From Gammaproteobacteria bacterium (lineage in GTDB: Bacteria; Pseudomonadota; Gammaproteobacteria; Eutrophobiales; Eutrophobiaceae): DNA of 64,000 bases. The stretch covers positions 149,508-213,507 of the forward strand of contig CAXMWX010000007.1 in assembly GCA_963422205.2 (NCBI GenBank), read 5' to 3'. Below are positions 16,098 to 30,660 of this stretch, one piece after another; within the stretch, counting starts at the first letter, position 1; every line of letters starts with the position of its first letter. The notes below the pieces were generated by a model. It had not been told where the DNA came from. It saw only the letters and a list, made by a program, of their open reading frames with translations, and made no database searches. A program made the translations under genes and the position numbers.

Positions 16098-16169
16098 CAG
16101 AAGACAGAAGTCAGAAGACAGAGGACAGAATGTATGCTCTGTCTTCCGTTCTCCATCTTCCGTCCTCTG
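16098..16169. repeat. Heptamer-repeat palindromic cassette H1 (terL/portal junction)
   Basis: CAGAAGA CAGAAGT CAGAAGA CAGAGGA CAGA..TCTGTCT TCCGTTC TCCATCT TCCGTCC TCTG. Confidence 0.9.
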
Positions 16170-16171
16170 CT

Positions 16172-17582
16172 TCACAGCAGCCCCCGTTGTGCCTTGATGG
16201 CATAACGATTGCCGTAAAAATCATCCTCATCGTCCGCATCGTAATAGGGCGAGACCGCCTCATAAGCAAAATGCTCGGCCGGCACCTGGGCTGCTGCTGT
16301 CGCCAAGGCCAGCGCCCAGAACCTATCCGCATGACCATCAGTGCCGGAACGCTCGGCCACCAGACGCGGGGTGCCGGTGATGCTGGTCTCAGCCTTGATG
16401 CTGTGCAGATCATGACGCAGCGCCTCATCGACCGGGATACGCAAGCGCCCATCTTCCAACACCTCACGCAGCGCGGTGGCCACATCCAGACGCCTGGGCG
16501 CACTTAAGATAATCCCCTCCACCCGGTACTTACCATGCGCCTCCTGTAATTGCTCCACCACCGCCTCACCCATGCCGGTTTGATCTACCGCGATGCGGCT
16601 TGGCCGGTAGTCCTCCACCAGCCGTGCCACAATGCTGTGCTGCTCGGCAAAGGGAATGCCCTGACGGGCAATAAGTTCACGTACCCACAGCACATCCCCC
16701 ACCCGTTCCAGCACCAGCGCCACCCACAAGTCCTGCCGGCGGGCGACATCAATGCCGATGTAGGTCAGGCCACCGGCGAAGTGCTCCGGCACCCCGGCCT
16801 GTTGGTGCTCGGCGGCGCGTAGCCATTGCCAGGCTAACCAGGCGCCACCGGTTTGTTTAGGTGTGCAGAACAACTCCTCTTCGGCCATCTCCCGAGTGGG
16901 GTATTTATTGATCTCACGGGCGCGCCACTCCTCGGCATAGTTATCATGCCAAGGGGCTTGTTTGACACTGGCAATGCGCCGGGCCAAGCCTTCGGCAATA
17001 GCATCATCTAAGGTAATGCGATGCAGTGCGTACGCGTGCTTGCCTTCACGCACATCACAGACCAGGCGGTTAAAGGCACTGTCCTCGCCTTTGTGCGTTG
17101 AGATGATGCGTACCTTGCCACCCCCATTGCGTTACCGCAATGGCCGCTTGTAGCAGATCATCCAGCTCATCACAAAACGCCGCCTCATCGATAATGACAA
17201 TATCGCCGGGTTTCCCTTTGGAGCGCAACACCCGGGGGTTCGATGGCAGGGCCTGAATGAACTTGCCCGAGTCAAAACGGATGCGAAAGCGCAATACCTG
17301 GCTTGCCTCATCGCTGATTAGGGTTTCCTCGACCTGTGATGCGGCCAGATTAAAGCGTATCGCCCACTCAGCACAATCACGGATATAGGTCTCGGTCATG
17401 TCCTTGTTATAGGACATATAAAAGATATTGCCTTTACCCTCGGCGGCATAGACCACCCGCTCGGCGGCATCACCCCAGGATAAACCAACGCGCCGCGACT
17501 TCTCACAGATGGCAATCTCGGCTTGCTCTTTATTCCAGCGCAACTGATAGGCCAGCAACAGGGGATAACCATCCTTATACAT
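16172..17582 (-). pseudogene. Mu gp28-like terminase large subunit, one frameshift near 17120
   Basis: EKSRRVGLSW, IIDEAAF, YIGIDVAR and HADRFWALALA motifs; an extra G in a G run splits WGGKVRIISTH. Confidence 0.88.
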
Positions 17583-17680
17583 GGGCGCTTTCCAGAGCGG
17601 CGCGAATGGCCGCTGCGGTATCCTGACTGACACCGGCCTTCTTAACTTGTGTCTCGGCCTTCTCGGCCATTGCCACTGCC
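17575..17680 (-). pseudogene. 3' remnant of Mu gp27-like (DUF3486-type) small terminase
   Basis: KAVAMAEKAETQVKKAGVSQDTAAAIRAALE directly upstream of and overlapping the terL start; 5' part absent. Confidence 0.65.
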
Positions 17681-18187
17681 TTGGGGCTGAACACCGAGGC
17701 AACTGAGACGCAGATTATTGAGCGTATCAACGCACTCAAAGCAGAGAAACAAACCGCACTCAATTCCGCACAGAGTCCCGACCCAGCCAGGTTTGTACCG
17801 ATAGAGACGCACCAGTTGGCCTTGAACCGGGCGGAGAGTGCCGAGGCCACGCTTACTAAGAACAAGGAGGCGGCCTTAACCGCCGAAGGTCAGGCGCTGG
17901 TGGAGCAGTCGATTACCGATGGCAAGATGGCGCCTGCCAATAAAGATCATTACCTGGCTCTGTGTCGGGACGAGGCCGGGCTTGAGACCGTCAAGCAACT
18001 GATGGCCGCCGCCCCCGAAGATACTGACGGAGGACAACGGGTACGGGTGGCGCGCCTGGCAAACCTGAGACGGCGCTCAATACCGAGGAGTCTCAGGTGG
18101 CCCGCCTTGCTGGGTCTGTCGGATAAAGCCATGACCGAGGCCAAGGCCGCGCACACCGCACATACAACCACAGGAGCTAACCGATGA
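17681..18187 (+). pseudogene. 3' half of Mu gpI-like protease/scaffold gene
   Basis: LGLNTEATETQII..INAL, PDPARFVP and AL..DGK.APA motifs; N-terminal protease domain missing; local frameshifts 18010-18105. Confidence 0.8.
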
Positions 18188-19085
18188 TTATCACACCGCA
18201 GGCAATCACGGCCCTTTATCACAGGCTTTAACAAAATCTTTCAGGATGCGCTCGGCAGTGCCGAGACCCAATGGCAGCAGGTGGCCACGCAGGTGCCATC
18301 CAGCACCAAGTCCAACACCTACGGCTGGCTGGGCAAGTGGCCAGGCTTTCGGGAATGGGTCGGCGAGCGGGTGTTCAAGAACTTGAAAGCCCACAGCTAT
18401 CAGGTCACGAATAAAAAATACGAGTCCTCGGTGGAGGTCGGGCGTGATGAGATTGAGGATGATCAGATCGGCATCTATAGCCCGATGGTGATGGAGATGG
18501 GTCAGGAGGCGGCCAGGTTTCCCGATGAGTTGGTCTTTGGTTTGCTGGGCGGCGGGTTTCACGACCGCTTGCTATGACGGGCAGAACTTCTTTGATGCCG
18601 AGCATCCGGTGTATCCGAATGCCGATGGCACCGGTACGGCGGTGCTCATCTCCAACATGCAGGCGGGCAGCGAGACGCCCTGGTTTCTGCTGGACACGTC
18701 CCGTGCCTTGAAGCCGCTGATCTATCAACTCCGCCGGGCGCCGGCGTTCAAGGCCATGACGGACACGGCGGATGAGGGCGTGTTCCTGCGCGATGCCTAT
18801 CGTTACGGGGCGGATTTGCGCTGTAATGCGGGCTTTGGCTTCTGGCAGATGGCTTATGGTTCAAAAGCGGATTTAACCCTGGAGAACTATGTGGCGGCCC
18901 GTACCGCGATGATGGGCTTTACTGGTGATGGCGATAAGAAACTCAAAGTTAGTCCTAAGTTACTGGTCGTACCGCCCTCGTTGGAAGAGAAGGCATTGAA
19001 GATACTGAAAGCCGAGCTCATCGACGGTGGCAACAGCAACGTCTACCGCAACACCGCCGAGGTCTTGTGTTGCCCGTATCTGTGA
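18184..19085 (+). pseudogene. Mu gpT-like major capsid protein, two apparent frameshifts (~18215, ~18548)
   Basis: MIITP, YGWLG..P..REW.GER, CYDGQNFFD..HP, KPLIYQ.R and GFGFWQMAYGS motifs. Confidence 0.9.
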
Positions 19086-19087
19086 TT

Positions 19088-19184
19088 CAGAGGACAGATG
19101 ACTGAGGACAGAAGACAGTGGTTGTATGGCGCAGAGCGCCATTCTCTAAAATCTGTCCTCCGTCTTCCGACTTCCGTTCTCTGA
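19088..19184. repeat. Heptamer-repeat palindromic cassette H2 (capsid/gp36 junction)
   Basis: Four CAGARGA-like units, central ATGGCGC-AGA-GCGCCAT hairpin, four complementary units. Confidence 0.92.
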
Positions 19185-19185
19185 C

Positions 19186-19599
19186 ATGTATATCACACCA
19201 GCCGACATTGAGGCGCGCTTAGGTGCGGAGGACTATGCCGTACTGGTGGGCAGTGGTGAAGATGCCCGTGAGCGGGTAACCCAAGCCATAGCCGATGCCA
19301 GTGGCGAGATCGATGGTTATGTGGGTCAGCGCTATGCGCTGCCGCTTGAGCCGATACCGACAGCTATTCAGCGAGTAGCGGTGGATATCAGTATCTATCG
19401 CTTATCCGGTGATAGCCGGGTAACCGAAGATAAGCGCAAGCGCTATGAGGACGCGATTGCATTTTTGAGGGGTGTGGTACGAGGCGAAGTCAGCTTAGGC
19501 GCGCCCGAACAGGCCAATGATGTCGATGATGCACATCAGGACACGATGGCGGTGACATCCAGGGCGCGGCAGTTCCATCGGGATAACCGAACGTTTTGA
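19186..19599 (+). CDS. Mu gp36-like head-tail connector (DUF1320)
   Basis: MYIT..DI, AIADASGEIDGY...RY.LPL and RYEDAI.FL motifs. Confidence 0.88.
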   Translation: MYITPADIEARLGAEDYAVLVGSGEDARERVTQAIADASGEIDGYVGQRYALPLEPIPTAIQRVAVDISIYRLSGDSRVTEDKRKRYEDAIAFLRGVVRGEVSLGAPEQANDVDDAHQDTMAVTSRARQFHRDNRTF

Positions 19600-19632
19600 T
19601 TATTCACCTGTAACTTAACTAGAGGCATCATC

Positions 19633-20004
19633 ATGGCACTAAGACGTAAAAAGACCACGACAAGAGACGGCGCCACCGAGACCGGTGCAACCGCAGAAGA
19701 GACAACCCAGCCCAACGGCACGGACGAGCAGGGCGCCAGGGACGGCGCGATGGGTAAAGACAGCACGCTCAAGACCCGGGTGAAAGACCTGCCTGACGGG
19801 GTCACGCAGTATTGGCGTGGCGGGGTGGCACACACCAGGGACTGGCAGGCATGGCCGGTCGATGCCTTTACTCCTGAGCAACTGGAGAAGATCAAGGCCG
19901 ACCCGCGCATTCAGATGACAGAAACCGAAATACAGAAGACAGATTCAGATGACAGGGGTCGGAAGACGGAGGACAGAGGTCGGAAGACGAAGGACGGAGA
20001 GTAA
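19633..20004 (+). CDS. Mu-like prophage protein (HI1506-like domain); C-terminus encoded by cassette H3
   Basis: YWRGG.AH...FTPEQLEKIKADPRI motif; heptamer-derived tail. Confidence 0.6.
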   Translation: MALRRKKTTTRDGATETGATAEETTQPNGTDEQGARDGAMGKDSTLKTRVKDLPDGVTQYWRGGVAHTRDWQAWPVDAFTPEQLEKIKADPRIQMTETEIQKTDSDDRGRKTEDRGRKTKDGE

Positions 20005-20046
20005 AGTTGGTCATCTGTCGTCTGTCTTCTGACTTCAGTCTTCTGA
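19912..20046. repeat. Heptamer-repeat palindromic cassette H3
   Basis: About 12 purine-rich 7-mers followed by TCTGTCG TCTGTCT TCTGACT TCAGTCT TCTGA. Confidence 0.9.
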
Positions 20047-20441
20047 ACGCCGAGTTAGCCAGGCTATCTGCGCTTGACCTGAATGACTTGTTAGCAACCC
20101 TGGCCTTTGCTGGCGAAGTCCAGACCCGGTGGCGCTTGGCGACAGAAAAGGCAAGCCCTGCGGGGGAGGCCTGGCCTACTTGGTCAGAAGTCTATGCCGC
20201 CAGGCGTCACGGTGGCCATGCCCTGCTGGAGAATGAGGGCGCTCTGATTGACAGCATCGAGTCCGGCACAGACGGCGATACCGCCTTCTGGGGCAGTGAT
20301 CTGATCTATGCCGCCACCCATCAGTATGGAGACGATGACAGGAACATTCCGCAGCGGCAATACTTGGGCGTGAGCAGCAATAACAAGCGCGAGATGACAG
20401 ACTTAATCAATGCCTTTTTGAGTGGGGCGGCGCCAGCATGA
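20007..20441 (+). CDS. Phage virion morphogenesis protein (Mu gpG/P2 gpS-like); start uncertain
   Basis: P.G..W..WS..Y, GSDLIYAATHQYG and IPQRQYLG motifs; only a TTG inside H3 is available as start. Confidence 0.8.
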   Translation: MVICRLSSDFSLLNAELARLSALDLNDLLATLAFAGEVQTRWRLATEKASPAGEAWPTWSEVYAARRHGGHALLENEGALIDSIESGTDGDTAFWGSDLIYAATHQYGDDDRNIPQRQYLGVSSNNKREMTDLINAFLSGAAPA

Positions 20442-21085
20442 TCAATGCCTTGCTCGACCACATCATCCATACCCTGGCGCCGTTGTTCCCGGAGTCGGTG
20501 AGCATTGCTCGCTATAACGGTCGGTTTACCGAGCGGGACTTAGACCGCTTCGCTGGTCGGGCGCCCGCCCTGCTCATCTCCGCCCAGCGTCTGGAGGTGA
20601 CCGGCTGCAATGTGATACCGGTACAGACTCTGCACCCAGGCGACAGTGAAGAAGTGCTGCGCAAACGTATTGAAGGCAGGCTGCATTGCGCCATTGCCAT
20701 TTTGACCAAGGACAGGCCGGGTCAATCCCGCGATGCGGTGGCCCTTGAGTTGGTCAACACACTCATCATCACCCTGCCGCAGCAGACCTTTGATGCGCCC
20801 TTGAGCCGGGGTGTAACAGCAGATTCTATCCGGGCGCAGAACCTGCACACGGTATCCCTGGATAACAAGGCGGTGACCTTATGGGGCGTCACCTTTATCC
20901 AGCCTGTCCGCATGGACGTCGGTCAGCCGCCCGTGTTTGACACACCGGCCCGGGTGATGCTGGGCATTGAGCCGGAGATTGGCCCTGACCATGTGGACGA
21001 TTACACTGACATTCAGAGGACAGACTTGCCTGCGCGCAGCGCGCAAGCAGGGGACGGAGAACAGAGGACAGACGGGTATGAATAA
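20438..21085 (+). CDS. Mu gp37-like tail terminator/completion protein; 3' end extends into cassette H4
   Basis: Position before the spike gene; GRF...DL..APA and A.NL....LWGV pattern. Confidence 0.6.
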   Translation: MINALLDHIIHTLAPLFPESVSIARYNGRFTERDLDRFAGRAPALLISAQRLEVTGCNVIPVQTLHPGDSEEVLRKRIEGRLHCAIAILTKDRPGQSRDAVALELVNTLIITLPQQTFDAPLSRGVTADSIRAQNLHTVSLDNKAVTLWGVTFIQPVRMDVGQPPVFDTPARVMLGIEPEIGPDHVDDYTDIQRTDLPARSAQAGDGEQRTDGYE

Positions 21086-21164
21086 AATTATCCTTTATCT
21101 GACTTCTGTCGTCCGTATTCTGATTTCTGAATCTGTCTTCCGTATTCAGTCCTCCGGCATCTGA
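21014..21164. repeat. Heptamer-repeat palindromic cassette H4 with nested 27-bp GC hairpin
   Basis: CAGAGGA CAGA[CTTGCCTGCGCGCAGCGCGCAAGCAGG]GGA CGGAGAA CAGAGGA...pyrimidine arm ending TCTGA before the ATG at 21167. Confidence 0.9.
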
Positions 21165-21166
21165 AC

Positions 21167-21760: not shown

Positions 21761-21764
21761 AACG

Positions 21765-22127: not shown

Positions 22128-22152
22128 GCGCTTTTACCGCCGCCATTGACCT

Positions 22153-22203
22153 TATGTACAGGAAGTACGGTAGGCCGCGGGTGCAGGGACGCACAGGAGC
22201 GGC
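22153..22203 (+). repeat. Double-hairpin CAGG(G)A-loop element interrupting a duplicated gpJ 5' end
   Basis: TATGTACAGGAAGTACGGTAGGCCG..GTGCAGGGACGCAC..GCGGC; first half matches the 23247 element. Confidence 0.75.
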
Positions 22204-22215
22204 AAGGAGTTCAGC

Positions 22216-23079: not shown

Positions 23080-23699
23080 GCAGTTTATTGCCCAGTCAGT
23101 ATGCCCTGCGAGAACGCGCCTTGGAAGCGGCCGCTGGTGAGCGGCTGAATGCGCTTGTCTCACCTGCCTTAACCCTGTGGGATGCCGATAACTGCCCGGC
23201 TGACCACCTGCCACAATTAGCCGCCGCCTTAAGTGTGGACTTCTGGTATGTACAGGACGTACGGTATGCCGGTTTTGCAGGAGCAAAAACCGGTGATGAC
23301 TGGCCGGAGGCAGTAAAGCGTCAGATGGTCAAGCAAGCACCGGAGTTGCATCGCTTGAAAGGCACCCCGGCAGGGCTGATCAAAGCACTGGCTATCCTGG
23401 GTTATGGTCACAGTTACTTGCGCGAGTTTGTGGCCTGGAAACACGATGGCACGTTTACCCGCAACGGCGCAATTGCCTACGGCCAGACCCTTACCTGGTA
23501 TCAGTTTGATGTCTATCTGCAAGCCGGTGCTATCCCCGATGCCAATACACTGAACACGCTGCGCCGTTACATTCAGGCATTTAAGCCCACCCATGCGCGC
23601 TTAAGGCGCATCTACTATGCCTCTTGTAAACACAACGGGCAGCACCAGCGCGATGGTCAGATTAACTACGATGGAGGCTTAAGCTATGGCGGACATTAA
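23076..23699 (+). CDS. Phage tail protein I (P2 gpI) carrying a 16-aa in-frame insertion
   Basis: SLLP, LWD...CP...LP.LA.ALSVD.W, WPE..KR and H..KGT motifs. Confidence 0.9.
   Translation: MSSLLPSQYALRERALEAAAGERLNALVSPALTLWDADNCPADHLPQLAAALSVDFWYVQDVRYAGFAGAKTGDDWPEAVKRQMVKQAPELHRLKGTPAGLIKALAILGYGHSYLREFVAWKHDGTFTRNGAIAYGQTLTWYQFDVYLQAGAIPDANTLNTLRRYIQAFKPTHARLRRIYYASCKHNGQHQRDGQINYDGGLSYGGH
23247..23294 (+). repeat. 48-bp double-hairpin element inserted in frame in gpI
   Basis: TATGTACAGGACGTACGGTATGCCGGTTTTGCAGGAGCAAAAACCGGT; removal restores SVDFW-DDWPE. Confidence 0.9.
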
Positions 23700-24756
23700 C
23701 GAGCAATCACAGTGGGAGGATACTGTCTACCAACTGGAGACCACCGACCCGGTCGTCGGCGGCCCGGACGGCATCAGTAACACCCAGGCCAAGCAACTCG
23801 CCAACCGCACGGCCTGGCTGAAATCCCAGGTGGAGCAACTGCTATCTGAACTGAATGCTATCGGTATTGATGATGTTTCTGGTTTGCCAGCGGCCTTGAA
23901 TGGCAAGGCGGCCAGCGCTCATAACCACAATGCCAGTGAGATTACCCGTGGCACCTTGAGTCTGTCCCGGCTCTCTACCGCCAGCCGCTATACCGATGCC
24001 AGCCCCAGTAAGCTGGCCCTGGCCAGCGCTGTGCGCTCGCTCTATGACTGGGTGGTCAGCCAGCTCACCACCAAGGCCGAGGCCGATGCGCTGACCCGGC
24101 ATCTGGGTAATGCCCATGCCCACGGGGAGTATGCGCCGCTTAGCACCTATAACCGCAGCCAGCAGGCGCAGGATGGGCGCCTGACCACCCTGGAGGGTAC
24201 GACCGAGAAACGCCATGTGCAGACCATCACCATCGCCGGCTCGACCAATTACCTGTATCCGGTGTTCTGGCAGTTTCCCGATAATCGCTTCGGCGTAGGC
24301 AAACTGGAGATCAGCCGCCATTACGGCTGGAACCAGGGCGTGCTTCCCAACGACTACGACCAGCCCTATCGGGTGGCGTCCCTGCTTTTGCAACTAGAGG
24401 GCAATGATGCGCCCTGGGGCGGTGATGCTGAGTATATGAAGGTCTTGAAATACTTCCGTCAATACCACAAAACCGCCTCGCACCTGCGCTATATGGGCTA
24501 TGCCAGGCGAGAGAAAATCAATGCCACCGGGGTAGCGCTGTACGGCGCTGCCAATACCAACTACACCCACAGCGGGATTTATCTGCGGGGTGGCGGGCTG
24601 CGCTACCGCTTCTCATCGAACTGGCCGCTGAACCTGATACGCCTGGCCGATGAGAACAGTGCCACCGCCAGAGCGGTACTGACTGAGCAATACAACACCC
24701 GCTGGTATGTGCAGCGCATACCGTTCACCGCCCTGGAAGAGCCGACCGAGGATTAG
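23686..24756 (+). CDS. Tail fibre protein
   Basis: W...VYQLETTDPV.GGPDG.SN.QAKQLANRT.WLK N-terminus; position after gpI. Confidence 0.85.
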   Translation: MADINEQSQWEDTVYQLETTDPVVGGPDGISNTQAKQLANRTAWLKSQVEQLLSELNAIGIDDVSGLPAALNGKAASAHNHNASEITRGTLSLSRLSTASRYTDASPSKLALASAVRSLYDWVVSQLTTKAEADALTRHLGNAHAHGEYAPLSTYNRSQQAQDGRLTTLEGTTEKRHVQTITIAGSTNYLYPVFWQFPDNRFGVGKLEISRHYGWNQGVLPNDYDQPYRVASLLLQLEGNDAPWGGDAEYMKVLKYFRQYHKTASHLRYMGYARREKINATGVALYGAANTNYTHSGIYLRGGGLRYRFSSNWPLNLIRLADENSATARAVLTEQYNTRWYVQRIPFTALEEPTED

Positions 24757-24759
24757 ACC

Positions 24760-25179
24760 ATGACTGAGGAGATCACACTGACCCACGATGAGGCGGTGGC
24801 CCTGGCCGAAGCCGAGGTCGCCCACATCCATAAAAAACGCCTGCGGGCAGACATCAAAGCTGAAGCCGGCGATCCCTTGTCCTTGCTCGGCACCACGGCC
24901 GATGCCACACAGCTACTGCTGTATCACGTTGCGATGTTGGTCAGCCACCTGCACACTGCCACCACGCTGGCCGAAGTCAGGGAGGCCGCCGCCCCCTTTG
25001 CTACCCTCGCCAGTCCCTTTCTCGCCAGGGTTGAATCCGGCGAGGTCAGACTGCCCTATCAGACCAAAGGACTGGAAGTGGTGATGGGCGATATTGAACG
25101 CAGGGCGAGCGCCGTGGCCGAGGCACTCGCCAACCACACACCCACAACCCCATCTGATACCACAGGAGAGTCATTATGA
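24760..25179 (+). CDS. Hypothetical phage protein (tail-fibre associated)
   Basis: ORF with RBS between the fibre and sheath genes. Confidence 0.6.
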   Translation: MTEEITLTHDEAVALAEAEVAHIHKKRLRADIKAEAGDPLSLLGTTADATQLLLYHVAMLVSHLHTATTLAEVREAAAPFATLASPFLARVESGEVRLPYQTKGLEVVMGDIERRASAVAEALANHTPTTPSDTTGESL

Positions 25180-26354
25180 CGATGCGAAACAAACTCCACG
25201 GTGTTGAGCACCGCTACTTACCCCTGGACAAACCCATTGAGGTGGTGGCCGCTTCCACCATTGCCTTGACCGCCACGGCGGACGATGCCGATGCTGACCA
25301 CTTCCCCTTAAACACACCCGTCTTGGTCAGTCAGCCCGATGACATCGCCCAGGCCGGCACCCGTGGCACCTTGGCGAATGCCCTTAACGACATCTATGCC
25401 CAGCAGCCCACCTTAGTCATCGTGGTGCGGGTAGCCGAGGCCGATACCGAGACTGGTACCACCGCCGAGCAGCAGGGCGCACAGGTGGCTCATCTCATCG
25501 GCACGGTGGATAACGAGACCAACACCTTCACCGGCATGCAGGCGATTCTGAACGCTGAGGCTACCCTCGGCATGATTCCTCGGCTGTTTATCTGTCCGGG
25601 CTTCAGTCAGATAGAAGCGGTGGGGACAGCATTGGAAGCCCTTGCCAAAAAGCTCCGGGGGATGGCCATCATTGATGGGCAATCCGATGGCTTATCCGCC
25701 GCTATACAGGATAAGAACCGCTACGATGAGGTGCTGTTTGTCGATAACGGGATTCGGCTGTTTGATACTGATAGCCAGGCTTATATCACCCGTGAGGCCT
25801 CCGCCTCGGTGGCCGGGCATATCGTGCGGATTGATTATGCGCATGGCTACTGGCACAGCCCCTCCAACCATCGGCTCTACGGCATCACCGGGCCGGGTGT
25901 TTCGGTGGACTACACCCGCGGCTCCAAGACCTGTCTGGCCAATGTCTTGTCTGCCAATGACATCGGTACCGTGATAAATAAGGAAGGCGGGCCGGTGTTC
26001 TGGGGCAATCGGCTGGCGAACGGGATGCTCATCCCGCACCAGCGACTGCGCTATCTGGTGGGGGATTCCATCATGGCGGCCCATGAGGAGTACGTGGACA
26101 GAAACTTAACCACCAGCTACTACGAGTTTATGATTGACCGGGTCAACCGCTTTATCCGCCGGCTAACACTCGCTGGCAAGATTGCTGGCGGGGAATGCTG
26201 GCTGAATGCGGAGCTGAACAAAGCCGCCGCTGAGGCCAACACGGCCTACTTTGATTATAAGCTGGGCTTCTTTAATGTCGCTGAGACGCTTGTTTTCAGG
26301 CAGCACGTCACCGCCGAGTACAACAACCAGATTATTGACCGCATTGCAACCTGA
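25176..26354 (+). CDS. Contractile tail sheath protein (P2 FI-like)
   Basis: HGVE, ADDADA..FPLNTPVL, TGMQA, PR....PG, GYWHSPSN and FWGNR motifs. Confidence 0.93.
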   Translation: MTMRNKLHGVEHRYLPLDKPIEVVAASTIALTATADDADADHFPLNTPVLVSQPDDIAQAGTRGTLANALNDIYAQQPTLVIVVRVAEADTETGTTAEQQGAQVAHLIGTVDNETNTFTGMQAILNAEATLGMIPRLFICPGFSQIEAVGTALEALAKKLRGMAIIDGQSDGLSAAIQDKNRYDEVLFVDNGIRLFDTDSQAYITREASASVAGHIVRIDYAHGYWHSPSNHRLYGITGPGVSVDYTRGSKTCLANVLSANDIGTVINKEGGPVFWGNRLANGMLIPHQRLRYLVGDSIMAAHEEYVDRNLTTSYYEFMIDRVNRFIRRLTLAGKIAGGECWLNAELNKAAAEANTAYFDYKLGFFNVAETLVFRQHVTAEYNNQIIDRIAT

Positions 26355-26446
26355 GGACAGATGGCGGGGGACAGAAGACAGATTGTAAGGAGCGGCTTCG
26401 CCGCACTTTATTGTCCGTCCTCCGTCTCCTGTCCTCAGTCCTCCGA
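26351..26446. repeat. Heptamer-repeat palindromic cassette H5 (sheath/tube junction)
   Basis: Four purine 7-mers, central GCGGC-TTC-GCCGC hairpin, four complementary units. Confidence 0.9.
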
Positions 26447-26461
26447 ATCAGGAGCACGACT

Positions 26462-26977
26462 ATGAGTATAAAAATCTTACAAGGCATGAACTGCTTTATT
26501 GACGGGCAGGAGTTTATCGGCGTGGCCACCAAGGCCGCTATCATCTACCCGCAACCGAAGATGAAGGATGTCGCCAGCCCAGGGCTGGCCGGGATGCGCA
26601 AGCTACAGACCGGCAAATGGGAGCTGGAGGACTTGAAAGTGACCTTGCAGGACTACCCGCCCGAGGTGATTGGCCTGGTGGGTCATCCTGAGAGCTCAGA
26701 GAAACCCGTGCAGTTGATTGGTGTGATGGGGCCGGAGGATCCCCGCACCGTGACCGTGACCATCACCGGCCCCTGGAACACCCTGGAAGGCGATGAGTGG
26801 GCGGATGACAGTGACAGTTCTTTAAGTTTCGGCATCTTCCCGGAAGTCTACACGCTGACCATCAATGGCAAAGAGGTCGTGTTCTACGACTGCCAGGCCA
26901 ATGAAGTCAGGCTAAATGGCAAATCCATGACGGCCGATCTCAACAAGCGCCTAAAGCGCACCACCGGATTGGTGTAA
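26462..26977 (+). CDS. Tail tube protein (P2 FII-like)
   Basis: L...N.FIDG..F.G start and Y.L.ING C-terminal pattern; GGAG RBS; follows sheath. Confidence 0.8.
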   Translation: MSIKILQGMNCFIDGQEFIGVATKAAIIYPQPKMKDVASPGLAGMRKLQTGKWELEDLKVTLQDYPPEVIGLVGHPESSEKPVQLIGVMGPEDPRTVTVTITGPWNTLEGDEWADDSDSSLSFGIFPEVYTLTINGKEVVFYDCQANEVRLNGKSMTADLNKRLKRTTGLV

Positions 26978-26995
26978 CCCAGAGGAGAGAACACA

Positions 26996-27232
26996 ATGGA
27001 GAAAATCACACTCGCCTATCCGATTGAGGATGAAGGCAAACAGATAAGCACACTTGAGTTGCGCCGGGCAAGGGTCGCCGATCTGGAAGTCATGGAGCGA
27101 GAGAGCGGTAACATGGCCAAGAGCATTGTCCTGCTCTCGCAACTGAGCGGTCTGTCCACTGATGCCATTCGCCAACTGGATGCGGCCGACTTTGATGCAG
27201 CCAGTGAGCAGGTGGCGGGTTTTTTAGCCTAA
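26996..27232 (+). CDS. Tail assembly chaperone (gpE/gp41-like)
   Basis: ITL.YPI, LRR..V.DL and LDAADF....V.GFL motifs. Confidence 0.88.
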   Translation: MEKITLAYPIEDEGKQISTLELRRARVADLEVMERESGNMAKSIVLLSQLSGLSTDAIRQLDAADFDAASEQVAGFLA

Positions 27233-27375
27233 GGGCGGAGAAGATGCGCCCCATGCTGGCCAATCTGGCGGTGGTGTTTCACTGGTCTCTTGAAGACATG
27301 AAGCAGATGCCACTGGAGGAGTTAATGGCCTACCACACGCTGGCGCTGGAGCGGGCGGTGCTTAGTCGAAAATAG
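27220..27375 (+). other. -1 programmed frameshift site T TTT TTA and gpE'-like extension
   Basis: Slippery heptamer at 27220-27226 in correct phase; -1 frame reads MLANLAVVFHWS......MPLEELM to a stop at 27375. Confidence 0.88.
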
Positions 27376-27619
27376 AACGAACTGTCTCAATCATTTCCAT
27401 CATCATGCCAATGACCCAAACAAAGCACAGCATCGCCAGGCCCGCTACCAGACCGCCCGCTAAGGCTGCACCCAGAAACGTGCCAACACTGGTGCCGTAT
27501 ACCGAGCACATAAACCAGCCACTTAAGATGGCTATGGCTATCACCGGGCTCAAGATGATGCAACAGAAACGCCACACTCCTCTGCGGTATGCTTGGCTAA
27601 GATCAGAGTCATTATCCAT
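27362..27619 (-). CDS. Small two-TM membrane protein (moron-like, antisense to the tail operon)
   Basis: 85-aa ORF with two hydrophobic helices filling the gap between gpE' and tape measure. Confidence 0.6.
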   Translation of the reverse strand: MDNDSDLSQAYRRGVWRFCCIILSPVIAIAILSGWFMCSVYGTSVGTFLGAALAGGLVAGLAMLCFVWVIGMMMEMIETVRSIFD

Positions 27620-27633
27620 AGGCCAAGTATAGC

Positions 27634-30033
27634 ATGACCCAGCTCAATGTCTCAGCCGAAGTCAATCTGGTGGATAAATTCAGTGCCTCGGCTGCGAAGA
27701 TTGCCGGGGTGTCTGAAAAACTGGCTGGACGTCTGCACGAGGGACAGAAAAAGCTGCGCGCCCTGGGGCGTAAAGGCCAAGCGATAGCGCACCTGAAAGC
27801 CCTCTCGGCACGCCTGGGTAAAACGGCTGCTGAGATGGATAGAGCGAAACAGCGCACAGCCCAGCTAGGCCGGGAGTTGGCCGCCACCACCAAGCCGACT
27901 AAACAACTGCAACGGCAGTTTGAGGCGGCCAGGAAACATGCTGACAACCTCAAACGTCAGCACCAGCAGCAACGCGATGAGCTGAAACGCCTGCGCGGTG
28001 AGTTGCGTGGTGCAGGCATAGATACCCGTAACTTAGGTGAGGCCCAGCGTAAGATTGCCAGTAATATGGCCGCCGCTACCCGCAAGATGGAAGGCATGGC
28101 CAAACAAGCCGATAAGGTGGCCGCTGCCCGGGCCAACTACGACCGCACCCTGCAACAAGCCGCCAACATCTCCCTGGTGGCCGGTGGCGTGCATCGCCTC
28201 GGCCAAGGGGCTTTGAGTATGGTAGCAGAGCCCATTGCCCAGATGCGTACCGTTGCGCGTTCCCGCGGCGAGCTGGCCTCGCTGGGCATGGATAAAAGCG
28301 GGGTGGATCAGATCGCCGCCCGTGGTCGGGAGCTGTCCACCCAACTGGCCGGGGTGACCACCGCCGCCTTTGTCTCAGCAGCGTATGACATCAAGAGCGG
28401 CATTGCCAGCTTAGATGATGCCGGGGTCGCCGATATGACGGCGATGGCGGCGCTGACCGCCAAGGCCACCAAGGCCGAGGTGGGGCAGATGACCAGTTTT
28501 TTTGCCACCAGTTATGGGTCGTTCAAGGACAGTCTGTATGAGACCATCAGTAACCGGGACTTCGGCAACATCCTCTCGGCCTCGCTGGCCAAGTCGGTGC
28601 AGCAGTTCAAGACCGATGGGGCGAAGATGCAGCAGGCCATTCAGTCGATGGGCTCAGGATTGGCTGAATCCGGCATCTCACTGGCCGAGCAGTTCACCGC
28701 CCTGGGTATGTTGCAGCAAAAGATGGAAGCCGGTGTGGCTGGCACCACCATGAAGGCGCTGGAGCGCTCGGCTGCCCAGGCACAAGCCCGCTTTGAGAAG
28801 ATGGGCATGTCGATTGAAACCCTGGATGAGAACGGCAACCTGCGCAGCCTGCCGGCGTTGATAGCAGAGATGCAGGCTGCTTTTGGTAAGGACTACACAT
28901 CCGAGACGGGTGCCATCATTCAGGAGGCCTTCGGCACGGCTGAGGCGGTGGAGTTTTTCAAGGCCTTGTGGGGGCAGCAGGATGCCTTCCGGGAGAACAC
29001 CCAGGCACTGGCAGAGGCACAGCAACAGGGCACGGCCTTTACCCAGACGATGGCATCGGCAATGGATGCCAATATGGATGCCCGGTTGCATATCCTTGAG
29101 CAGCGCTTTGCCGTCATCAAAGAACGGCTGGGCAGCGCACTCATCCCCGCCCTGGAGAGACTGATGCCGTGGCTTGAGAAAGCTGCCGGATGGATCAGCC
29201 GCCTGGTCGATAACAACAGCCGCTTGACCAGGTTTTTCATGGCGGCGGTGGCGGGTGTGGGTTTGATTGCCACGGTCATCGCCCCGGTGATTACCGCCGT
29301 TGCCGCCTTGACCACAACGCTGGCTTATCTCGGCTATGCCGCCAGAAAATCCGCTGCCGAGACTGCCCTGGCCTCGGCTGTGATGGGTGGTGGCAAGGGC
29401 AGGGGCTTACGCGGCATGGCGGGCAAGGCTGGCGGGATGCTCAAAGGCAAACTGGGGCTGGTGGGCGCAGGCATCGGTACCCTGGCCATTGGCACGACCT
29501 TGATGGATGATACATTGAGCGGCGGGGAGAAAGCCGCCCAGATCAGCCGCGAGGCGGGCGGCATCGGCGGGGCGCTGGCCGGGGCAGCAGCGGGTGCGGC
29601 CTTAGGCTCCATTGTACCGGTGGTGGGTACTGCTATTGGTGGCATTGCGGGCGGCATCATCGGTGGTATGTCCGGCAACGCGCTGGCCGATGGCCTGGTC
29701 GGGTTATTCTCCTCGGATGATGGGGCAAAACGCACACCGGACACATCTGCTACCACACTCGCCTCTGCTGCCCTGATGGGCACAGCACTGGCTGCGGCCC
29801 CCGTAGCTGCCCAGTCGGACGAGGCAGCACTACCCGCATCCCTGCCTGTTATCACCGCAGCACAAGCACCGCCCAGCACACAACACACCGATAACAGCAC
29901 CCACAGCTACCACATCACCGTCACCCCCAGCCCCGGCATGGATGAGCAGCGTCTGACTGAGCTGGTGGTCGAGAAACTCAAGGCAGCCAACCAGGCCACC
30001 GCCCGCCGTGCCCGTGCCCGCCAGCATGACTGA
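27634..30033 (+). CDS. Tail tape measure protein
   Basis: 799-aa Ala/Gly-rich helical protein after the chaperone; AAYDIKSGI and T.KATK core. Confidence 0.93.
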   Translation: MTQLNVSAEVNLVDKFSASAAKIAGVSEKLAGRLHEGQKKLRALGRKGQAIAHLKALSARLGKTAAEMDRAKQRTAQLGRELAATTKPTKQLQRQFEAARKHADNLKRQHQQQRDELKRLRGELRGAGIDTRNLGEAQRKIASNMAAATRKMEGMAKQADKVAAARANYDRTLQQAANISLVAGGVHRLGQGALSMVAEPIAQMRTVARSRGELASLGMDKSGVDQIAARGRELSTQLAGVTTAAFVSAAYDIKSGIASLDDAGVADMTAMAALTAKATKAEVGQMTSFFATSYGSFKDSLYETISNRDFGNILSASLAKSVQQFKTDGAKMQQAIQSMGSGLAESGISLAEQFTALGMLQQKMEAGVAGTTMKALERSAAQAQARFEKMGMSIETLDENGNLRSLPALIAEMQAAFGKDYTSETGAIIQEAFGTAEAVEFFKALWGQQDAFRENTQALAEAQQQGTAFTQTMASAMDANMDARLHILEQRFAVIKERLGSALIPALERLMPWLEKAAGWISRLVDNNSRLTRFFMAAVAGVGLIATVIAPVITAVAALTTTLAYLGYAARKSAAETALASAVMGGGKGRGLRGMAGKAGGMLKGKLGLVGAGIGTLAIGTTLMDDTLSGGEKAAQISREAGGIGGALAGAAAGAALGSIVPVVGTAIGGIAGGIIGGMSGNALADGLVGLFSSDDGAKRTPDTSATTLASAALMGTALAAAPVAAQSDEAALPASLPVITAAQAPPSTQHTDNSTHSYHITVTPSPGMDEQRLTELVVEKLKAANQATARRARARQHD

Positions 30034-30034
30034 T

Positions 30035-30134
30035 CGGAGGACAGATGACGGAGAATGGAGGACAGAAAATAAAGTATGCCGCAGAGCGGCATCCTCTACA
30101 GTCTGTCCTCGGTCTTCTGTCGTCTGATTTCTGA
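30035..30134. repeat. Heptamer-repeat palindromic cassette H6 (tape measure/gpU junction)
   Basis: Central ATGCCGC-AGA-GCGGCAT hairpin; arms abut the upstream TGA and downstream ATG. Confidence 0.92.
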
Positions 30135-30536
30135 ATGCCGACCCAACTGATGCTCGGCGAGTTCCCCTTCAGCCTCGCTACCACGGAGTATGACCGGCTG
30201 AACCGAACACTTAGCTGGCGCTGGCCATCCCAGACACGCCTGAACCGAAAGCCCGCCCTGCAATACCAGGGGCCTGAGATCATCACCTTGCAGTTAAACG
30301 GCACGATACACGTCAAAGCAGCCAGGGACTTAACGTTACCTGAGGCCATGCAGCGTGAGGCCGACAAGGGTGAACCGCTGGCGCTGCTGGTGGGTAATGG
30401 CGAACTGGCTGCCCGCTACGGCGGGCGCTGGGTGATGACCGAGCTAGCGTTCAATGACAGCGATCTGCTCGGTGATGGCACCCTGCTCACCATTGCCTTC
30501 AGCATGACCTTGAAACAATGGGGCGAAGACAGATGA
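30135..30536 (+). CDS. Phage tail protein (P2 gpU-like)
   Basis: LG.F.FSL.T, WRW....R....PALQY.GP....I.L.G motifs. Confidence 0.9.
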   Translation: MPTQLMLGEFPFSLATTEYDRLNRTLSWRWPSQTRLNRKPALQYQGPEIITLQLNGTIHVKAARDLTLPEAMQREADKGEPLALLVGNGELAARYGGRWVMTELAFNDSDLLGDGTLLTIAFSMTLKQWGEDR

Positions 30537-30660
30537 CAGACGGCAGAATACAGAGGACAGAACATAAAGATGGCGCAAAGCGCCATGCCGCCAGTCTGTC
30601 TTCAGTTCTCCGTCCCCTGCTTGCGCGCTGCGCGCAGGCAAGTCTGTCCTCCGTCATCCG
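30526..30660. repeat. Heptamer-repeat palindromic cassette H7, read in frame as the gpX N-terminus
   Basis: Central ATGGCGC-AAA-GCGCCAT hairpin; nested 27-bp hairpin 30616-30642 is the exact reverse complement of 21025-21051. Confidence 0.9.

What the first reader, a model, noticed from the sequence alone, without database searches (positions are those of the whole stretch)
16098..30660. Seven heptamer-repeat palindromic cassettes at gene junctions of the phage structural operon
Seen: H1 16098-16169, H2 19088-19184, H3 19912-20046, H4 21014-21164, H5 26351-26446, H6 30035-30134 and H7 30526-30660 share one design. Each has an arm of tandem degenerate 7-mers (consensus C[A/G]GA[A/G]GA), a short centre, and an arm of reverse-complement 7-mers, so each can fold into a long hairpin. 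All lie at gene boundaries inside the prophage, and I saw none in the other 44 kb. In H2 and H6 the left arm starts 1-2 nt after the upstream TGA and the right arm ends 0-1 nt before the downstream ATG; H4 ends 2 nt before its ATG. None of these three has a Shine-Dalgarno. Inference: folding would bring stop and start together, preserving translational coupling (ribosome shunting) or creating an RNA-processing site that sets structural-protein stoichiometry. Alternatively they are empty landing pads or non-autonomous copies of a junction-targeting mobile element. From memory, similar 7-mer arms flank four-helix-bundle genes in other bacteria; this is unverified and no such gene is in the window.
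Basis: partly seen in the sequence, partly recalled or inferred. Interest (0 to 1): 0.9.

Follow-up and report, generated by a model that had tools for sequence, protein, structure and literature searches.

The report
Ribosomal-type heptamer hairpins between phage genes
Seven long hairpin inserts between the structural genes of a prophage belong to the same repeat family as the "intervening sequences" that interrupt this bacterium's own ribosomal RNA genes, so a kind of element known mainly from ribosomal RNA also spreads into phage operons.

Summary
All seven cassettes exist at the stated places, fold into long hairpins, and stand unchanged in independent assemblies of two sequencing runs.

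They are not peculiar to the phage. The genome holds 17 such cassettes. Seven lie in this prophage and five beside late genes of other prophage regions. Five lie in the single rRNA operon found: 16S helix 10, two tRNA spacers, 23S helix 9 and 23S helix 45. The helix-45 copy carries the genome's only four-helix-bundle "23S rRNA IVS protein" gene.

In the 80 best relatives of that gene kept from other bacteria, every arm that could be measured has a 7-nt period. Coxiella's RNase III-excised IVS is reported to use the same GACAGAT/GACAGAA unit.

Best reading: these are ORF-less, MITE-like members of the heptamer-armed IVS family. They are transcribed within the phage late operon and probably cut by RNase III. 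Mobility is inferred, not shown. Homologous junctions in related phages are empty, relatives' rRNA lacks the inserts, and cassettes at unrelated junctions are 80-84% identical.

Arm pairing is generic, and only the small central hairpin covaries. No RNA data exist. His mobile-element alternative, and his memory of four-helix-bundle genes, are supported.

The parts
16098..16169 (-). H1. A 72-nt cassette between the terminase large-subunit fragment (16172-17053, -) and the portal gene (14515-16077, -). It has 5+5 heptamers and a short centre without the GC hairpin.
   Evidence: Fold -40.8 kcal/mol, z -4.78. Covariance-model hit, E 1e-13. It lies 2 nt after the TGA, and a 20-nt spacer containing GAGGA precedes the ATG.
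19088..19184 (+). H2. A cassette between the major head protein (ends 19085) and the head-tail adaptor (ATG 19186).
   Evidence: Fold -42.4 kcal/mol, z -4.53. Model hit at 95.7 bits.
19912..20046 (+). H3. A cassette with a long purine arm (4+8 units) and a 5-unit pyrimidine arm. The upstream ORF (19633-20004) reads through the arm to a TAA in the loop. The downstream Neck1-like ORF starts at TTG 20007 in the loop.
   Evidence: Fold -55.6 kcal/mol, z -4.88. The PHROG match of the downstream protein begins at residue 13, which is at the cassette's end.
21014..21164 (+). H4. A composite cassette between the 215-aa ORF (20438-21085, whose last ~23 codons and TAA lie in the cassette) and the baseplate gene (ATG 21167).
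   Evidence: Fold -55.8 kcal/mol, z -4.61. Model hit, E 8e-8.
21025..21051 (+). A 27-nt GC-rich palindrome nested in the left arm of H4. It is a separate dispersed repeat.
   Evidence: 12 copies with up to 3 mismatches in the genome (contigs C3, C7, C9, C12), against 0 for the reversed control pattern. Contigs of the public runs break here.
26351..26446 (+). H5. A cassette between tail sheath (stop TGA 26352-26354, inside the first heptamer) and tail tube (ATG 26462, with AGGAG upstream).
   Evidence: Fold -53.5 kcal/mol, z -6.68. The homologous junction of a phage contig with a 63%-identical sheath is 45 nt long with GGAGA and no cassette.
30035..30134 (+). H6. A cassette between the tape-measure gene (TGA 30031-30033) and the next tail gene (ATG 30135).
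   Evidence: Fold -56.2 kcal/mol, z -8.21. It is the best model hit at 98.2 bits. The homologous junction of the second prophage overlaps and has no cassette.
30523..30667 (+). H7. A composite cassette between the 133-aa tail gene (TGA 30534-30536, in the second heptamer) and the small 60-aa tail/baseplate gene (ATG 30677).
   Evidence: Fold -66.2 kcal/mol, z -6.25. Model hit at 81.4 bits.
30616..30642 (-). The same 27-nt palindrome nested in the right arm of H7, in the opposite orientation to the copy in H4.
   Evidence: exact match; contig break at 30622-30634.

Best explanation
H1-H7 are ORF-less, MITE-like members of the heptamer-armed "intervening sequence" (IVS) family.

Each cassette has a 5' arm of tandem GACAGAR-type 7-mers and a 3' arm of the complementary 7-mers. 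Most also have a conserved centre: an A/T-rich stretch followed by a 7-bp GC hairpin.

The same family supplies the inserts in this bacterium's own 16S and 23S rRNA and in its tRNA spacers. The full-length form carries a four-helix-bundle (S23p/Avd-like) gene.

Shown: the anatomy, the family relationship, the distribution, and the fact that occupancy of junctions is not conserved.

Inferred:
(1) The cassettes arrived by insertion or by copying between sites. They survive only where a self-folding rod is tolerated, namely helix tips, tRNA spacers, and the few bases between a stop and the next start.
(2) They are transcribed as part of the late operon and form a 30-45 bp double-stranded stem.
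(3) The host's RNase III cuts that stem as it cuts IVSs in rRNA. This would split the polycistronic message at those junctions, much as at the RNase III sites of phage T7 messages.
(4) For the phage they are neutral to mildly costly passengers rather than designed parts. Three to four of the seven have overwritten the native stop or start, and the genes now use codons inside the cassette.
For: Family and anatomy.
- One alignment of 13 cassettes holds together: 4 from the window, 5 from other prophage regions, 2 from rRNA and 2 from another genus. It has 18 invariant columns, and pairwise identity over the whole cassette is 50-98%.
- A covariance model built from it finds exactly 16 ORF-less loci in 2.99 Mb at E <= 1.2e-4, and nothing else better than E 0.0096.

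Location.
- Five cassettes lie in the single rRNA operon found. By Rfam and BLAST against E. coli rrnH they sit at 16S ~182-193, 23S ~131-157 and 23S ~1164-1185, plus one before tRNA-Ile and one filling the tRNA-Ile/tRNA-Ala spacer to within 2-3 nt.
- The helix-45 copy carries a 123-aa ORF: PF05635 E 1.4e-27, TIGR02436 E 2.1e-25. It is the only PF05635 match in the genome.
- All 12 cassettes outside the rRNA operon adjoin phage late genes.

Generality.
- Of the 80 kept loci encoding relatives of that ORF, 76 lie in 23S helix 45, 2 in helix 25, 1 at a contig end and 1 between kdsD-like and lptC-like genes.
- The best self-similarity lag is 7 in 78 of 78 left arms and 79 of 79 right arms. The median arm-arm duplex energy is -54.9 kcal/mol.

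Literature.
- The Coxiella burnetii helix-45 IVS has tandem GACAGAT/GACAGAA units whose number differs between strains. RNase III excises it, cutting at the first repeat (passages of PMC4990558).
- The host has an RNase III gene.

Insertion or mobility.
- The 16S insert is missing from 25 of 25 related 16S loci, including the same-genus genome. They carry a 14-nt native hairpin instead.
- The tape-measure/tail-gene junctions of a second, 25-40% identical prophage have no cassette. Its portal/minor-head junction has one where the window's has none.
- A phage contig with a 63%-identical sheath has an empty H5 site.
- H6 and the cassette at an unrelated junction are 80-84% identical.
- Two 95%-identical prophage copies differ in their cassette by exactly one 7-nt unit.
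- 15 of 120 other genomes of the family have model hits, some at 6-11 loci.
- Hairpins of the same design occur on 16 of 80 fetched IMG/VR contigs.
Against: - No RNA evidence exists. No listed sequencing run is RNA, so transcription across the cassettes and cutting by RNase III are inferred only.
- No cassette-free allele of this same phage was found, and no consistent target-site duplication could be read. Movement is therefore inferred from comparisons at 25-63% protein identity and from rRNA of other genera.
- At the 16S site the cassette replaces a native hairpin rather than simply interrupting it.
- The arms show no cassette-specific complementarity. Own-pair duplex energy is -26.9 kcal/mol against -26.4 for foreign pairs, permutation p = 0.34. 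Evolution therefore gives no positive signal for the long stem, only for the 5-bp core of the central hairpin.
- A purely selfish, random-insertion model does not explain why every non-rRNA copy in this genome lies in a prophage, while a separate small palindrome is spread over the chromosome.
- The four-helix-bundle protein has no known mobility function, and the Coxiella authors doubt that theirs is even translated.
Confidence: 0.6

Rival explanations
1. The cassettes are devices kept by the phage for translational coupling. The folded hairpin holds the stop of one gene next to the start of the next. A terminating ribosome then melts the base of the stem and re-initiates, or shunts across it, which fixes protein ratios.
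For: - In H2, H4 and H6 the pyrimidine arm ends 0-2 nt before an ATG that has no Shine-Dalgarno. In H2 and H6 the purine arm starts 1-2 nt after the TGA.
- The pyrimidine arm often ends in CTGA just before the ATG. This holds for H2, H4, H6, the cassette before the small terminase on contig C14, and one cassette in a related genome.
- The junctions would lack a Shine-Dalgarno even without the cassette, so coupling is needed there.
Against: - The same cassettes sit in rRNA helices and tRNA spacers, where translation is irrelevant.
- They also sit between unrelated chromosomal genes in a relative.
- Homologous junctions of related phages do without them.
- H1 and H5 keep their own Shine-Dalgarno. 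H3, H4 and H7 have disrupted the native gene ends.
- The arms show no compensatory evolution.
Confidence: 0.15
2. The heptamer arrays are binding or landing sites for a protein or for the ribosome, such as ribosomal protein S1 or a CsrA-type regulator. They would act as translation enhancers or regulators of the downstream gene, as proposed for TAACTGA repeats.
For: - Tandem TAACTGA units in Beggiatoaceae, cyanobacteria and Bacteroidetes mostly lie upstream of start codons. The largest class ends 1 nt before the start, often with no Shine-Dalgarno (abstract and passages of PMC4679880).
- This genome also has single arms, some just upstream of phage genes.
- A related genome has a direct array of at least 16 units ending about 12 nt before an ATG.
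- The purine arms are rich in GGAGGA.
Against: - In H1-H7 every array is paired with its complement, so the motifs would be buried in a stem.
- The unit sequence differs widely between lineages while the 7-nt period is kept. That does not fit one conserved binding protein.
- The rRNA copies are again unexplained.
Confidence: 0.1
3. The cassettes act at the DNA level. As universal 30-40 bp linkers or cruciforms at gene borders, they would promote exchange or rearrangement of phage modules.
For: - Any purine arm pairs with any pyrimidine arm about equally well, so all cassettes share recombination-length similarity.
- They lie at module borders in three prophage regions.
- A second repeat has inserted into two of them.
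Against: - The one recent exchange seen between the two prophages is the fibre and the next gene, at 97-99% identity. It ends at about 23686 and 25170, not at a cassette.
- No rearrangement joint at a cassette appeared in the laid contigs. The single joint reported, 25169 to 29894, is supported by one low-depth contig with a 26-letter side.
Confidence: 0.05
4. The cassettes are transcription terminators or attenuators that set the level of downstream late genes.
For: The conserved centre, a 7-bp GC hairpin followed by CTTTATTTT-like bases, is flagged as terminator-like on the + strand in H5 and on the - strand in H6 and H7.
Against: - No T-run follows the long hairpin itself.
- In H6 and H7 the terminator-like side faces antisense.
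- H1, H3 and H4 lack the motif, and H2 lacks the T-rich tail.
Confidence: 0.05

Closest known systems
23S rRNA intervening sequence with an S23p/four-helix-bundle ORF (Coxiella burnetii helix 45; also reported for Leptospira, Haemophilus sp. FF7 and others)
   Same: - Same heptamer unit: GACAGAT/GACAGAA are reported for Coxiella.
- The purine arm lies 5' and the complement 3', forming a long stem.
- The number of units varies.
- The same genome holds a full copy with the PF05635 ORF at the same 23S site.
   Different: - H1-H7 lie in messenger RNA between phage genes, not in rRNA.
- They have no ORF.
- They carry a conserved small GC hairpin in the centre.
- Processing has not been shown.
- In the passages I read, the Coxiella paper treats the repeats as a feature upstream of the ORF. 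It does not describe them as the arms of a dispersed family.
Correia/nemis elements of Neisseria and other bacterial MITEs (ERIC, RUP and others)
   Same: - Short, ORF-less and multi-copy, with inverted ends.
- Co-transcribed with neighbouring genes.
[quoted passage not shown]
- Repeats fused to gene ends are known (same review).
   Different: - Here the arms are tandem 7-mers, not unique inverted repeats.
- No TA or other target duplication could be established.
- The full-length relative encodes a four-helix-bundle protein, not a transposase.
- Copies also occupy rRNA helices.
TAACTGA direct repeats of Beggiatoaceae, cyanobacteria and Bacteroidetes, and the STRR heptamers of cyanobacteria (the name STRR is recalled)
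   Same: - Tandem 7-nt units in intergenic DNA.
- They end within a base or two of start codons that often lack a Shine-Dalgarno.
- The distribution is patchy and looks horizontal.
- Some alphaproteobacterial IVS arms seen here contain TAACTGA-like units.
   Different: - Those are almost all direct repeats without an inverted partner: 169 direct sets and 1 inverted, from the abstract.
- The unit differs.
- The paper text I searched has no mention of 23S or helix bundle (0 occurrences of each). Its supplementary tables were not available to me.
RNase III processing hairpins between genes of phage T7 messages, and in rpsO-pnp
   Same: A long imperfect stem between cistrons of a polycistronic phage message. 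Cutting there separates and stabilises or destabilises the flanking messages (passages of PMC8708148).
   Different: The T7 sites are unique, conserved phage sequences. These cassettes are copies of a repeat family shared with the host's rRNA operon and with other genomes.

Membership tests
rRNA intervening sequence (IVS), S23p type | Lies inside an rRNA gene and replaces the tip of a helix | tested here: not met
   H1-H7 lie between protein-coding phage genes. The feature is met only by the family's other copies in the same genome: 16S ~182-193, 23S ~131-157 and ~1164-1185.
rRNA intervening sequence (IVS), S23p type | Complementary ends form a long extra stem | tested here: met
   All seven fold into one long hairpin, with 0 of 200 shuffles folding as well.
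rRNA intervening sequence (IVS), S23p type | Arms built of tandem heptamers (GACAGAN in gamma-, beta- and deltaproteobacterial copies) | tested here: met
   for the window. In the 80 related loci, lag 7 is best in 78 of 78 left arms and 79 of 79 right arms. The Coxiella units come from passages of PMC4990558.
rRNA intervening sequence (IVS), S23p type | Encodes a PF05635 four-helix-bundle protein | tested here: not met
   H1-H7 are 72-151 nt long and have no ORF. The genome has one PF05635 match, at C5:233465-233791 in 23S.
rRNA intervening sequence (IVS), S23p type | Excised from the transcript by RNase III | not testable with these tools
   No RNA run is listed for this organism. An RNase III gene is present.
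MITE (miniature inverted-repeat element) | Short, non-coding, with inverted ends, in several dispersed copies | tested here: met
   There are 16 ORF-less loci of 72-174 nt. The termini read TT-CRGARGAC ... GTCYTCYG-AA.
MITE (miniature inverted-repeat element) | Target-site duplication at the ends | tested here: inconclusive
   Read by eye. H6 could carry a duplicated AT or CTGA, H2 a TGA, and H4 a CAT or ACAT. There is no consistent length. The terminal TGA is part of the arm consensus. At the 16S site a native hairpin was replaced.
MITE (miniature inverted-repeat element) | Presence/absence differences between homologous sites | tested here: met
   25 of 25 related 16S loci lack the insert. 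Junction occupancy differs between the two prophages. The H5 site is empty in L162. No comparison was possible with a near-identical phage.
MITE (miniature inverted-repeat element) | A related autonomous element that encodes a transposase | tested here: not met
   The only longer relative carries a four-helix-bundle ORF, which has no known transposase or nuclease domain.
TAACTGA / STRR-type heptamer direct repeats | Tandem 7-nt units that end within a few bases of a start codon | tested here: met
   The pyrimidine arms of H2, H4 and H6 end 0-2 nt before the ATG.
TAACTGA / STRR-type heptamer direct repeats | Unit TAACTGA, occurring as direct repeats without an inverted partner | tested here: not met
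   The unit here is GACAGAR or its complement, and all seven are inverted pairs.
Intrinsic terminator | GC-rich stem followed directly by a T-run on the transcribed strand | tested here: not met
   No T-run follows the long stem. The small central hairpin is flagged on the sense strand only in H5.
Any Rfam family | Match at the family's gathering score | tested here: not met
   0 matches in the whole window.

The most novel reading that the evidence does not exclude
Three things would be forms of one widespread class of mobile cassette whose hallmark is a pair of inverted arms with a 7-nt period around a CAG/CTG core. They are the rRNA intervening sequences, the ORF-less hairpins at phage and operon junctions, and the unexplained heptamer arrays next to start codons (the TAACTGA and STRR types).

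The four-helix-bundle (Avd-like) gene would be its only gene. The cassette would behave as a "spliceless intron". It settles wherever its own rod-like fold leaves the flanks adjacent: helix tips, tRNA spacers, and stop-start junctions. RNase III then removes it from the RNA without ligation. Phages would be both habitat and vehicle.
Probability: 0.3. Interest if true: 0.8.

Novelty: new variant of a known kind. Interest (0 to 1): 0.62.

Why it matters
IVSs have been known since 1990, yet their origin, how they spread and the role of their small ORF remain open. This is stated in the discussion passages of PMC4990558.

This genome shows the same element type in several settings at once. It occurs in 16S rRNA, in 23S rRNA, in tRNA spacers and, without its ORF, at twelve junctions of phage late genes. 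A related genome carries it between ordinary genes.

That turns the IVS from a curiosity of rRNA into a dispersed repeat family that can be studied like a MITE, through copy-number changes, empty sites and heptamer gain and loss.

It also has three practical consequences:
- It suggests that phages carry these elements between hosts.
- It predicts RNase III cuts at defined places in a phage late operon, and a 16S rRNA that is fragmented or extended.
- It offers a concrete link to the unexplained heptamer arrays next to start codons in cyanobacteria and sulfur bacteria.

For annotation, gene ends beside such cassettes are easily miscalled. Here four upstream frames end inside a cassette, and the downstream gene of H3 has its only in-frame start inside one.

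Tried and rejected
- RNA evidence. The look-up of sequencing runs listed no RNA holder, so expression and cutting could not be examined.
- Close relatives of the phage. The 133-aa tail protein found none in genome contigs or viral contigs. The sheath found one viral contig at 63% identity and none in metagenome contigs. A DNA search of 40 relatives found only a rearranged remnant in G007. So no empty site of the same phage was obtained.
- The IVS protein in viral contigs: no relative was found.
- Target-site duplication. I read the ends by eye, and the candidates differ in length between cassettes. I do not claim one.
- Arm covariation. Own and foreign arm duplex energies do not differ. I therefore dropped the idea that each cassette maintains its own pairing.
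- The idea that every cassette puts a stop in all three frames. It is rejected. One frame runs open through the whole of H7 (ORF 30518-30859) and through a cassette in G007.
- The idea that the central GC hairpin is the 3' end of ORF-bearing elements. A search for a perfect 6-8 bp GC hairpin after the ORF found it in 1 of 80 loci, and that one is an rRNA helix. The idea is not supported.
- A crude test of junction bias on viral contigs. Arrays lay inside an open frame of at least 120 codons in 113 of 137 cases, against 3567 of 4000 random windows. The test is uninformative, because GC-rich DNA has long open frames in all six frames and no gene caller was available.
- Phage-specificity of the family. 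It is rejected. At the 6 of G047's 7 non-rRNA cassette loci where I searched flanks (10 proteins), all matched cellular families and none matched a phage family.
- Retro-transposition. Three RVT_1 matches lie on contig C7, far from any cassette. I did not follow this up.
- Rfam: no match at the gathering score.
Supplementary files were not requested. The supplementary repeat tables of PMC4679880 and the strain tables of PMC4990558 may hold inverted-repeat or copy-number data that bear on the comparison.
- Not computed. The chance expectation for the viral pattern scan was not computed, because the size of the collection is not given.

Full report
OBSERVATION

H7 is a little longer than stated, about 30523-30667. 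A scan for three or more tandem units fitting C[AG]GA[AG]GA finds 17 arms in the window, all between 16098 and 30667. It finds none in 60 Markov-1 simulations of the window.

Folded as RNA in the sense of the genes, each cassette gives one long hairpin. Free energies run from -40.8 to -66.2 kcal/mol and z-scores from -4.5 to -8.2, and 0 of 200 shuffles fold as well.

Contigs assembled independently from two public runs bridge H1, H2, H3, H5 and H6 without a difference. These runs come from one study and may be the source sample. The cassettes are therefore not assembly artefacts. The same contigs show six 1-nt differences at 17121-18547. The split terminase and head genes of the window are thus probably indel errors of the window's assembly.

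ANATOMY

Because the two arms are complementary, both DNA strands read purine arm first and pyrimidine arm second. Units are GACAGAA, GACAGAG, GACAGAT, GACGGAG and the like. The ends read TT-CRGARGAC ... GTCYTCYG-AA.

Most cassettes share a centre: an A/T-rich stretch of the ATAAAG kind, then a 7-bp GC hairpin with a 3-nt loop, then about nine more bases. Thirteen cassettes align over their whole length with 18 invariant columns. They comprise four from the window, five from other prophage regions, the two rRNA copies, and two from another genus.

In the consensus fold the central hairpin covaries: AU 10 / GC 3, UA 11 / CG 2, and CG 7 / GC 5. The arms do not. The outer 28 nt of a left arm pair as well with foreign right arms (-26.4 kcal/mol) as with their own (-26.9), permutation p = 0.34. 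The long stem is therefore generic. Evolution gives no cassette-specific signal for it.

H4 and H7 each also contain a 27-nt GC palindrome. It is a separate repeat with 12 copies over the chromosome.

POSITION RELATIVE TO GENES

The surrounding genes are a phage morphogenesis cluster (PHROGs). Portal, terminase and a minor head protein lie on the - strand. On the + strand lie head, adaptor, neck, baseplate, fibre, sheath, tube, tape measure and further tail genes.

- H2, H4 and H6 end 1, 2 and 0 nt before an ATG that has no Shine-Dalgarno. H2 and H6 begin 2 and 1 nt after the TGA.
- In H3, H4, H5 and H7 the upstream frame ends inside the cassette.
- In H4 the last 23 or so codons are cassette-encoded, and the PHROG match stops at residue 192-193 of 215.
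- In H3 the downstream protein's family match starts at residue 13, exactly where the cassette ends. Its only in-frame start is a TTG in the loop behind GGAGAG.
- H1 and H5 retain a Shine-Dalgarno-like motif.

The cassettes have therefore partly overwritten the native gene ends.

DISTRIBUTION IN THE GENOME

A covariance model built from the alignment finds 16 ORF-less loci in the 2.99-Mb genome at E <= 1.2e-4. Otherwise it finds only weak single arms.

- Seven loci are H1-H7.
- Five lie in other prophage-like regions. One is between a late activator and an endolysin, one at a portal/minor-head junction (present in two 95%-identical copies), one before a small terminase, and one after a head-protease gene.
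- Four lie in the single rRNA operon found, which also holds a fifth, ORF-bearing cassette.

By comparison with E. coli rrnH, the rRNA copies sit as follows:
- at 16S positions ~182-193 (tip of helix 10);
- before tRNA-Ile;
- between tRNA-Ile and tRNA-Ala, to within 2-3 nt of each;
- at 23S ~131-157 (helix 9);
- at 23S ~1164-1185 (helix 45).

The helix names are recalled. The helix-45 copy holds a 123-aa ORF that matches PF05635 (E 1.4e-27) and TIGR02436 "four helix bundle protein". It is the only such gene in the genome. The phage cassettes and the organism's own IVSs are thus one family.

THE WIDER FAMILY

Relatives of that ORF were found at 228 places in the species-representative genomes, and the best 80 were kept.
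- 76 lie in 23S helix 45, 2 in helix 25, and 1 at a contig end.
- 1 lies between a kdsD-like and an lptC-like gene of an alphaproteobacterial MAG. It starts a few bases after the TGA and ends at TAA just before the ATG.
- In every arm that could be measured the best self-similarity lag is 7: 78 of 78 left arms and 79 of 79 right arms.
- The purine-rich arm is 5', with mean purine fraction 0.68 against 0.35 for the 3' arm.
- The arms pair strongly (median -54.9 kcal/mol).

The unit differs by lineage. GACAGAR occurs in many gamma-, beta- and deltaproteobacteria, and CAGGNNN, TCAGTAA or GTCAGAT types in alphaproteobacteria. The period is constant and most units contain CAG.

WHAT IS IN PRINT

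- Warrier et al. 2016 (PMC4990558; abstract and passages read) describe the Coxiella burnetii helix-45 IVS. It has two or three GACAGAT units plus GACAGAA upstream of the S23p ORF, and the number varies between strains. RNase III excises it, with the 5' cut at the start of the first repeat. They regard the origin of IVSs as open.
[quoted passage not shown] It also states that RNase III cuts hairpins in T7 messages and between rpsO and pnp.
- MacGregor 2015 (PMC4679880; abstract and passages) describes TAACTGA direct repeats that mostly end 1 nt before start codons. The searched text contains neither "23S" nor "helix bundle".
- A review of small repeats (PMC3184786; passages) notes Correia elements in prophage regions and repeats fused to gene ends.
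- Eight full-text searches were run. In what I read of their results (listings, abstract starts, and passages of five papers) none describes IVS-type or heptamer-armed cassettes at phage gene junctions. The library lacks most subscription journals.

EVIDENCE FOR INSERTION AND TURNOVER

- The 16S insert is absent from 25 of 25 related 16S loci, the same-genus genome included. They have a 14-nt native hairpin at that place.
- In relatives such as G007 and G017 the 23S helix-9 and helix-45 sites show no insert. G012, G020, G021 and G022 have a helix-45 insert.
- A second prophage of this genome is 25-40% identical in protein. Its tape-measure/tail and next junctions carry no cassette. It has a single arm where the window has an overlap, and a cassette at the portal/minor-head junction where the window has none.
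- A phage contig whose sheath is 63% identical has a 45-nt sheath/tube spacer with GGAGA and no cassette.
- H6 and the cassette at the unrelated portal junction are 80-84% identical, with centres 85% identical.
- The two 95%-identical prophage copies differ in their cassette by exactly one 7-nt unit, while nearby coding DNA has substitutions.
- 15 of 120 other genomes of the bacterial family have model hits. By genus, and including this genome, the count is 12 of 34.
- One complete genome, G047, has four cassettes in its rRNA operon, again including 16S helix 10 and both tRNA spacers. It has seven more elsewhere. At the 6 of those 7 loci where I searched flanks, the 10 proteins tested all matched ordinary cellular families such as Rho and a TonB-dependent receptor. 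The family is therefore not phage-specific.
Of the 80 loci fetched, 16 show purine-arm/pyrimidine-arm hairpins. Examples lie after a TAG and before a Shine-Dalgarno, and after a major capsid gene.

MECHANISM: COMMITMENT

I think the cassettes are passengers: ORF-less derivatives of the IVS-type element. They persist where a self-folding rod leaves the flanks functionally adjacent. Transcribed within the late operon, they should form 30-45 bp stems that the host RNase III (gene present) cuts as it cuts IVSs. That would split the message at those junctions.

The family identity I hold at about 0.85. Cutting by RNase III I hold at about 0.55. I rate the whole statement at 0.6.

Against it:
- there is no RNA evidence;
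- there is no clean empty site of the same phage;
- there is no target duplication;
- the arms do not covary;
- it is unexplained that all twelve non-rRNA copies of this genome sit in prophages.

The rivals, with my confidence in each:
- a selected coupling device (0.15);
- a protein or ribosome landing array (0.1);
- DNA-level recombination linkers (0.05);
- terminators (0.05).

Each explains part of the picture, but none explains the rRNA and tRNA-spacer copies.

NOVELTY

IVSs and their heptamers are known, as are heptamer arrays near start codons and MITEs processed in messages. The new points are these. ORF-less IVS-type cassettes occupy junctions of phage late operons. The same family occupies 16S rRNA and tRNA spacers in one genome. 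And 7-nt periodic arms were found in every measurable arm of the 80 best relatives of the S23p-type IVS protein gene. I file it as a new variant of a known kind.

LIMITS

All functional statements are inferences.

Noticed in passing
G000 contig C5:229836-229931 (L001:1337-1432): The single 16S rRNA gene found carries a 96-nt hairpin insert at E. coli positions ~182-193. All 25 related 16S loci compared have a 14-nt native hairpin there. G047 has an insert at the same place. Inserts in 16S are, from recall, much rarer than in 23S.
   Followed up: yes
G000 contig C5:~234622-235441 (L001:6123-6942): The 23S gene is also interrupted at E. coli position 1917/1918 by about 820 nt. This insert holds a 199-aa LAGLIDADG endonuclease ORF (PF00961, E 2.7e-16) and is probably a group I intron. 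The Rfam LSU match spans 4342 nt against a 2925-position model.
   Followed up: partly
window 21025-21051 and 30616-30642; also C3, C7, C9:100724, C12: A 27-nt GC-rich palindrome occurs 12 times in the genome with up to 3 mismatches. It has inserted into the arms of H4 and H7 in opposite orientations. Similar palindromes lie in G039 (L010) and inside a G047 cassette (L152). It resembles a REP-type repeat.
   Followed up: partly
window 17121, 18012, 18036, 18101, 18218, 18547: A deep short-read contig (depth ~500) lacks one base at each of these places. The apparent frameshifts that split the terminase large subunit and the major head gene in the window are therefore probably assembly indel errors, not decay of the prophage.
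   Followed up: partly
window 23686-25176 versus C14:3165-4649: The tail fibre and the following 139-aa gene are 97-99% identical between the window's prophage and the second prophage. Their neighbours are only 25-40% identical. This is a recent exchange of the host-range module, and its ends are not at cassettes.
   Followed up: no
L075:3030-3375 (alphaproteobacterial MAG): In the same LPS-transport operon that holds a four-helix-bundle cassette, a 102-aa GIY-YIG gene lies between lptC-like and lptA-like genes. It is flanked by a different pair of roughly 28-nt palindromic repeats. This is a second kind of small gene wedged between operon genes.
   Followed up: no
L014:1440-1570 and L155-L161 (G020): A related genus uses other units (TTATCTG, TCATCTG, TCGTCTG and their complements). 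It has direct arrays of at least 16 units ending about 12 nt before an ATG, and hairpins with 6-9 units per arm at eight or so loci.
   Followed up: partly
L013:1502-1592 (G007 contig C2): A cassette of the same design lies inside a 480-aa open frame that looks to me like a phage minor head protein (my reading of the translation; no family search was run). The frame reads through the whole cassette without a stop. The cassette may be translated there, or two genes may be fused in the ORF call.
   Followed up: no
G000 contig C7:767605-767871, 824763-825419, 827236-827751: There are three reverse-transcriptase (RVT_1) matches, one with an internal TGA. None is near a cassette, and their type was not determined.
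   Followed up: no
window 26392-26404, 30076-30092, 30570-30586: The conserved centre of the cassettes (GC hairpin plus CTTTATTTT-like tail) is flagged as terminator-like. It is on the sense strand in H5 and on the antisense strand in H6 and H7.
   Followed up: no
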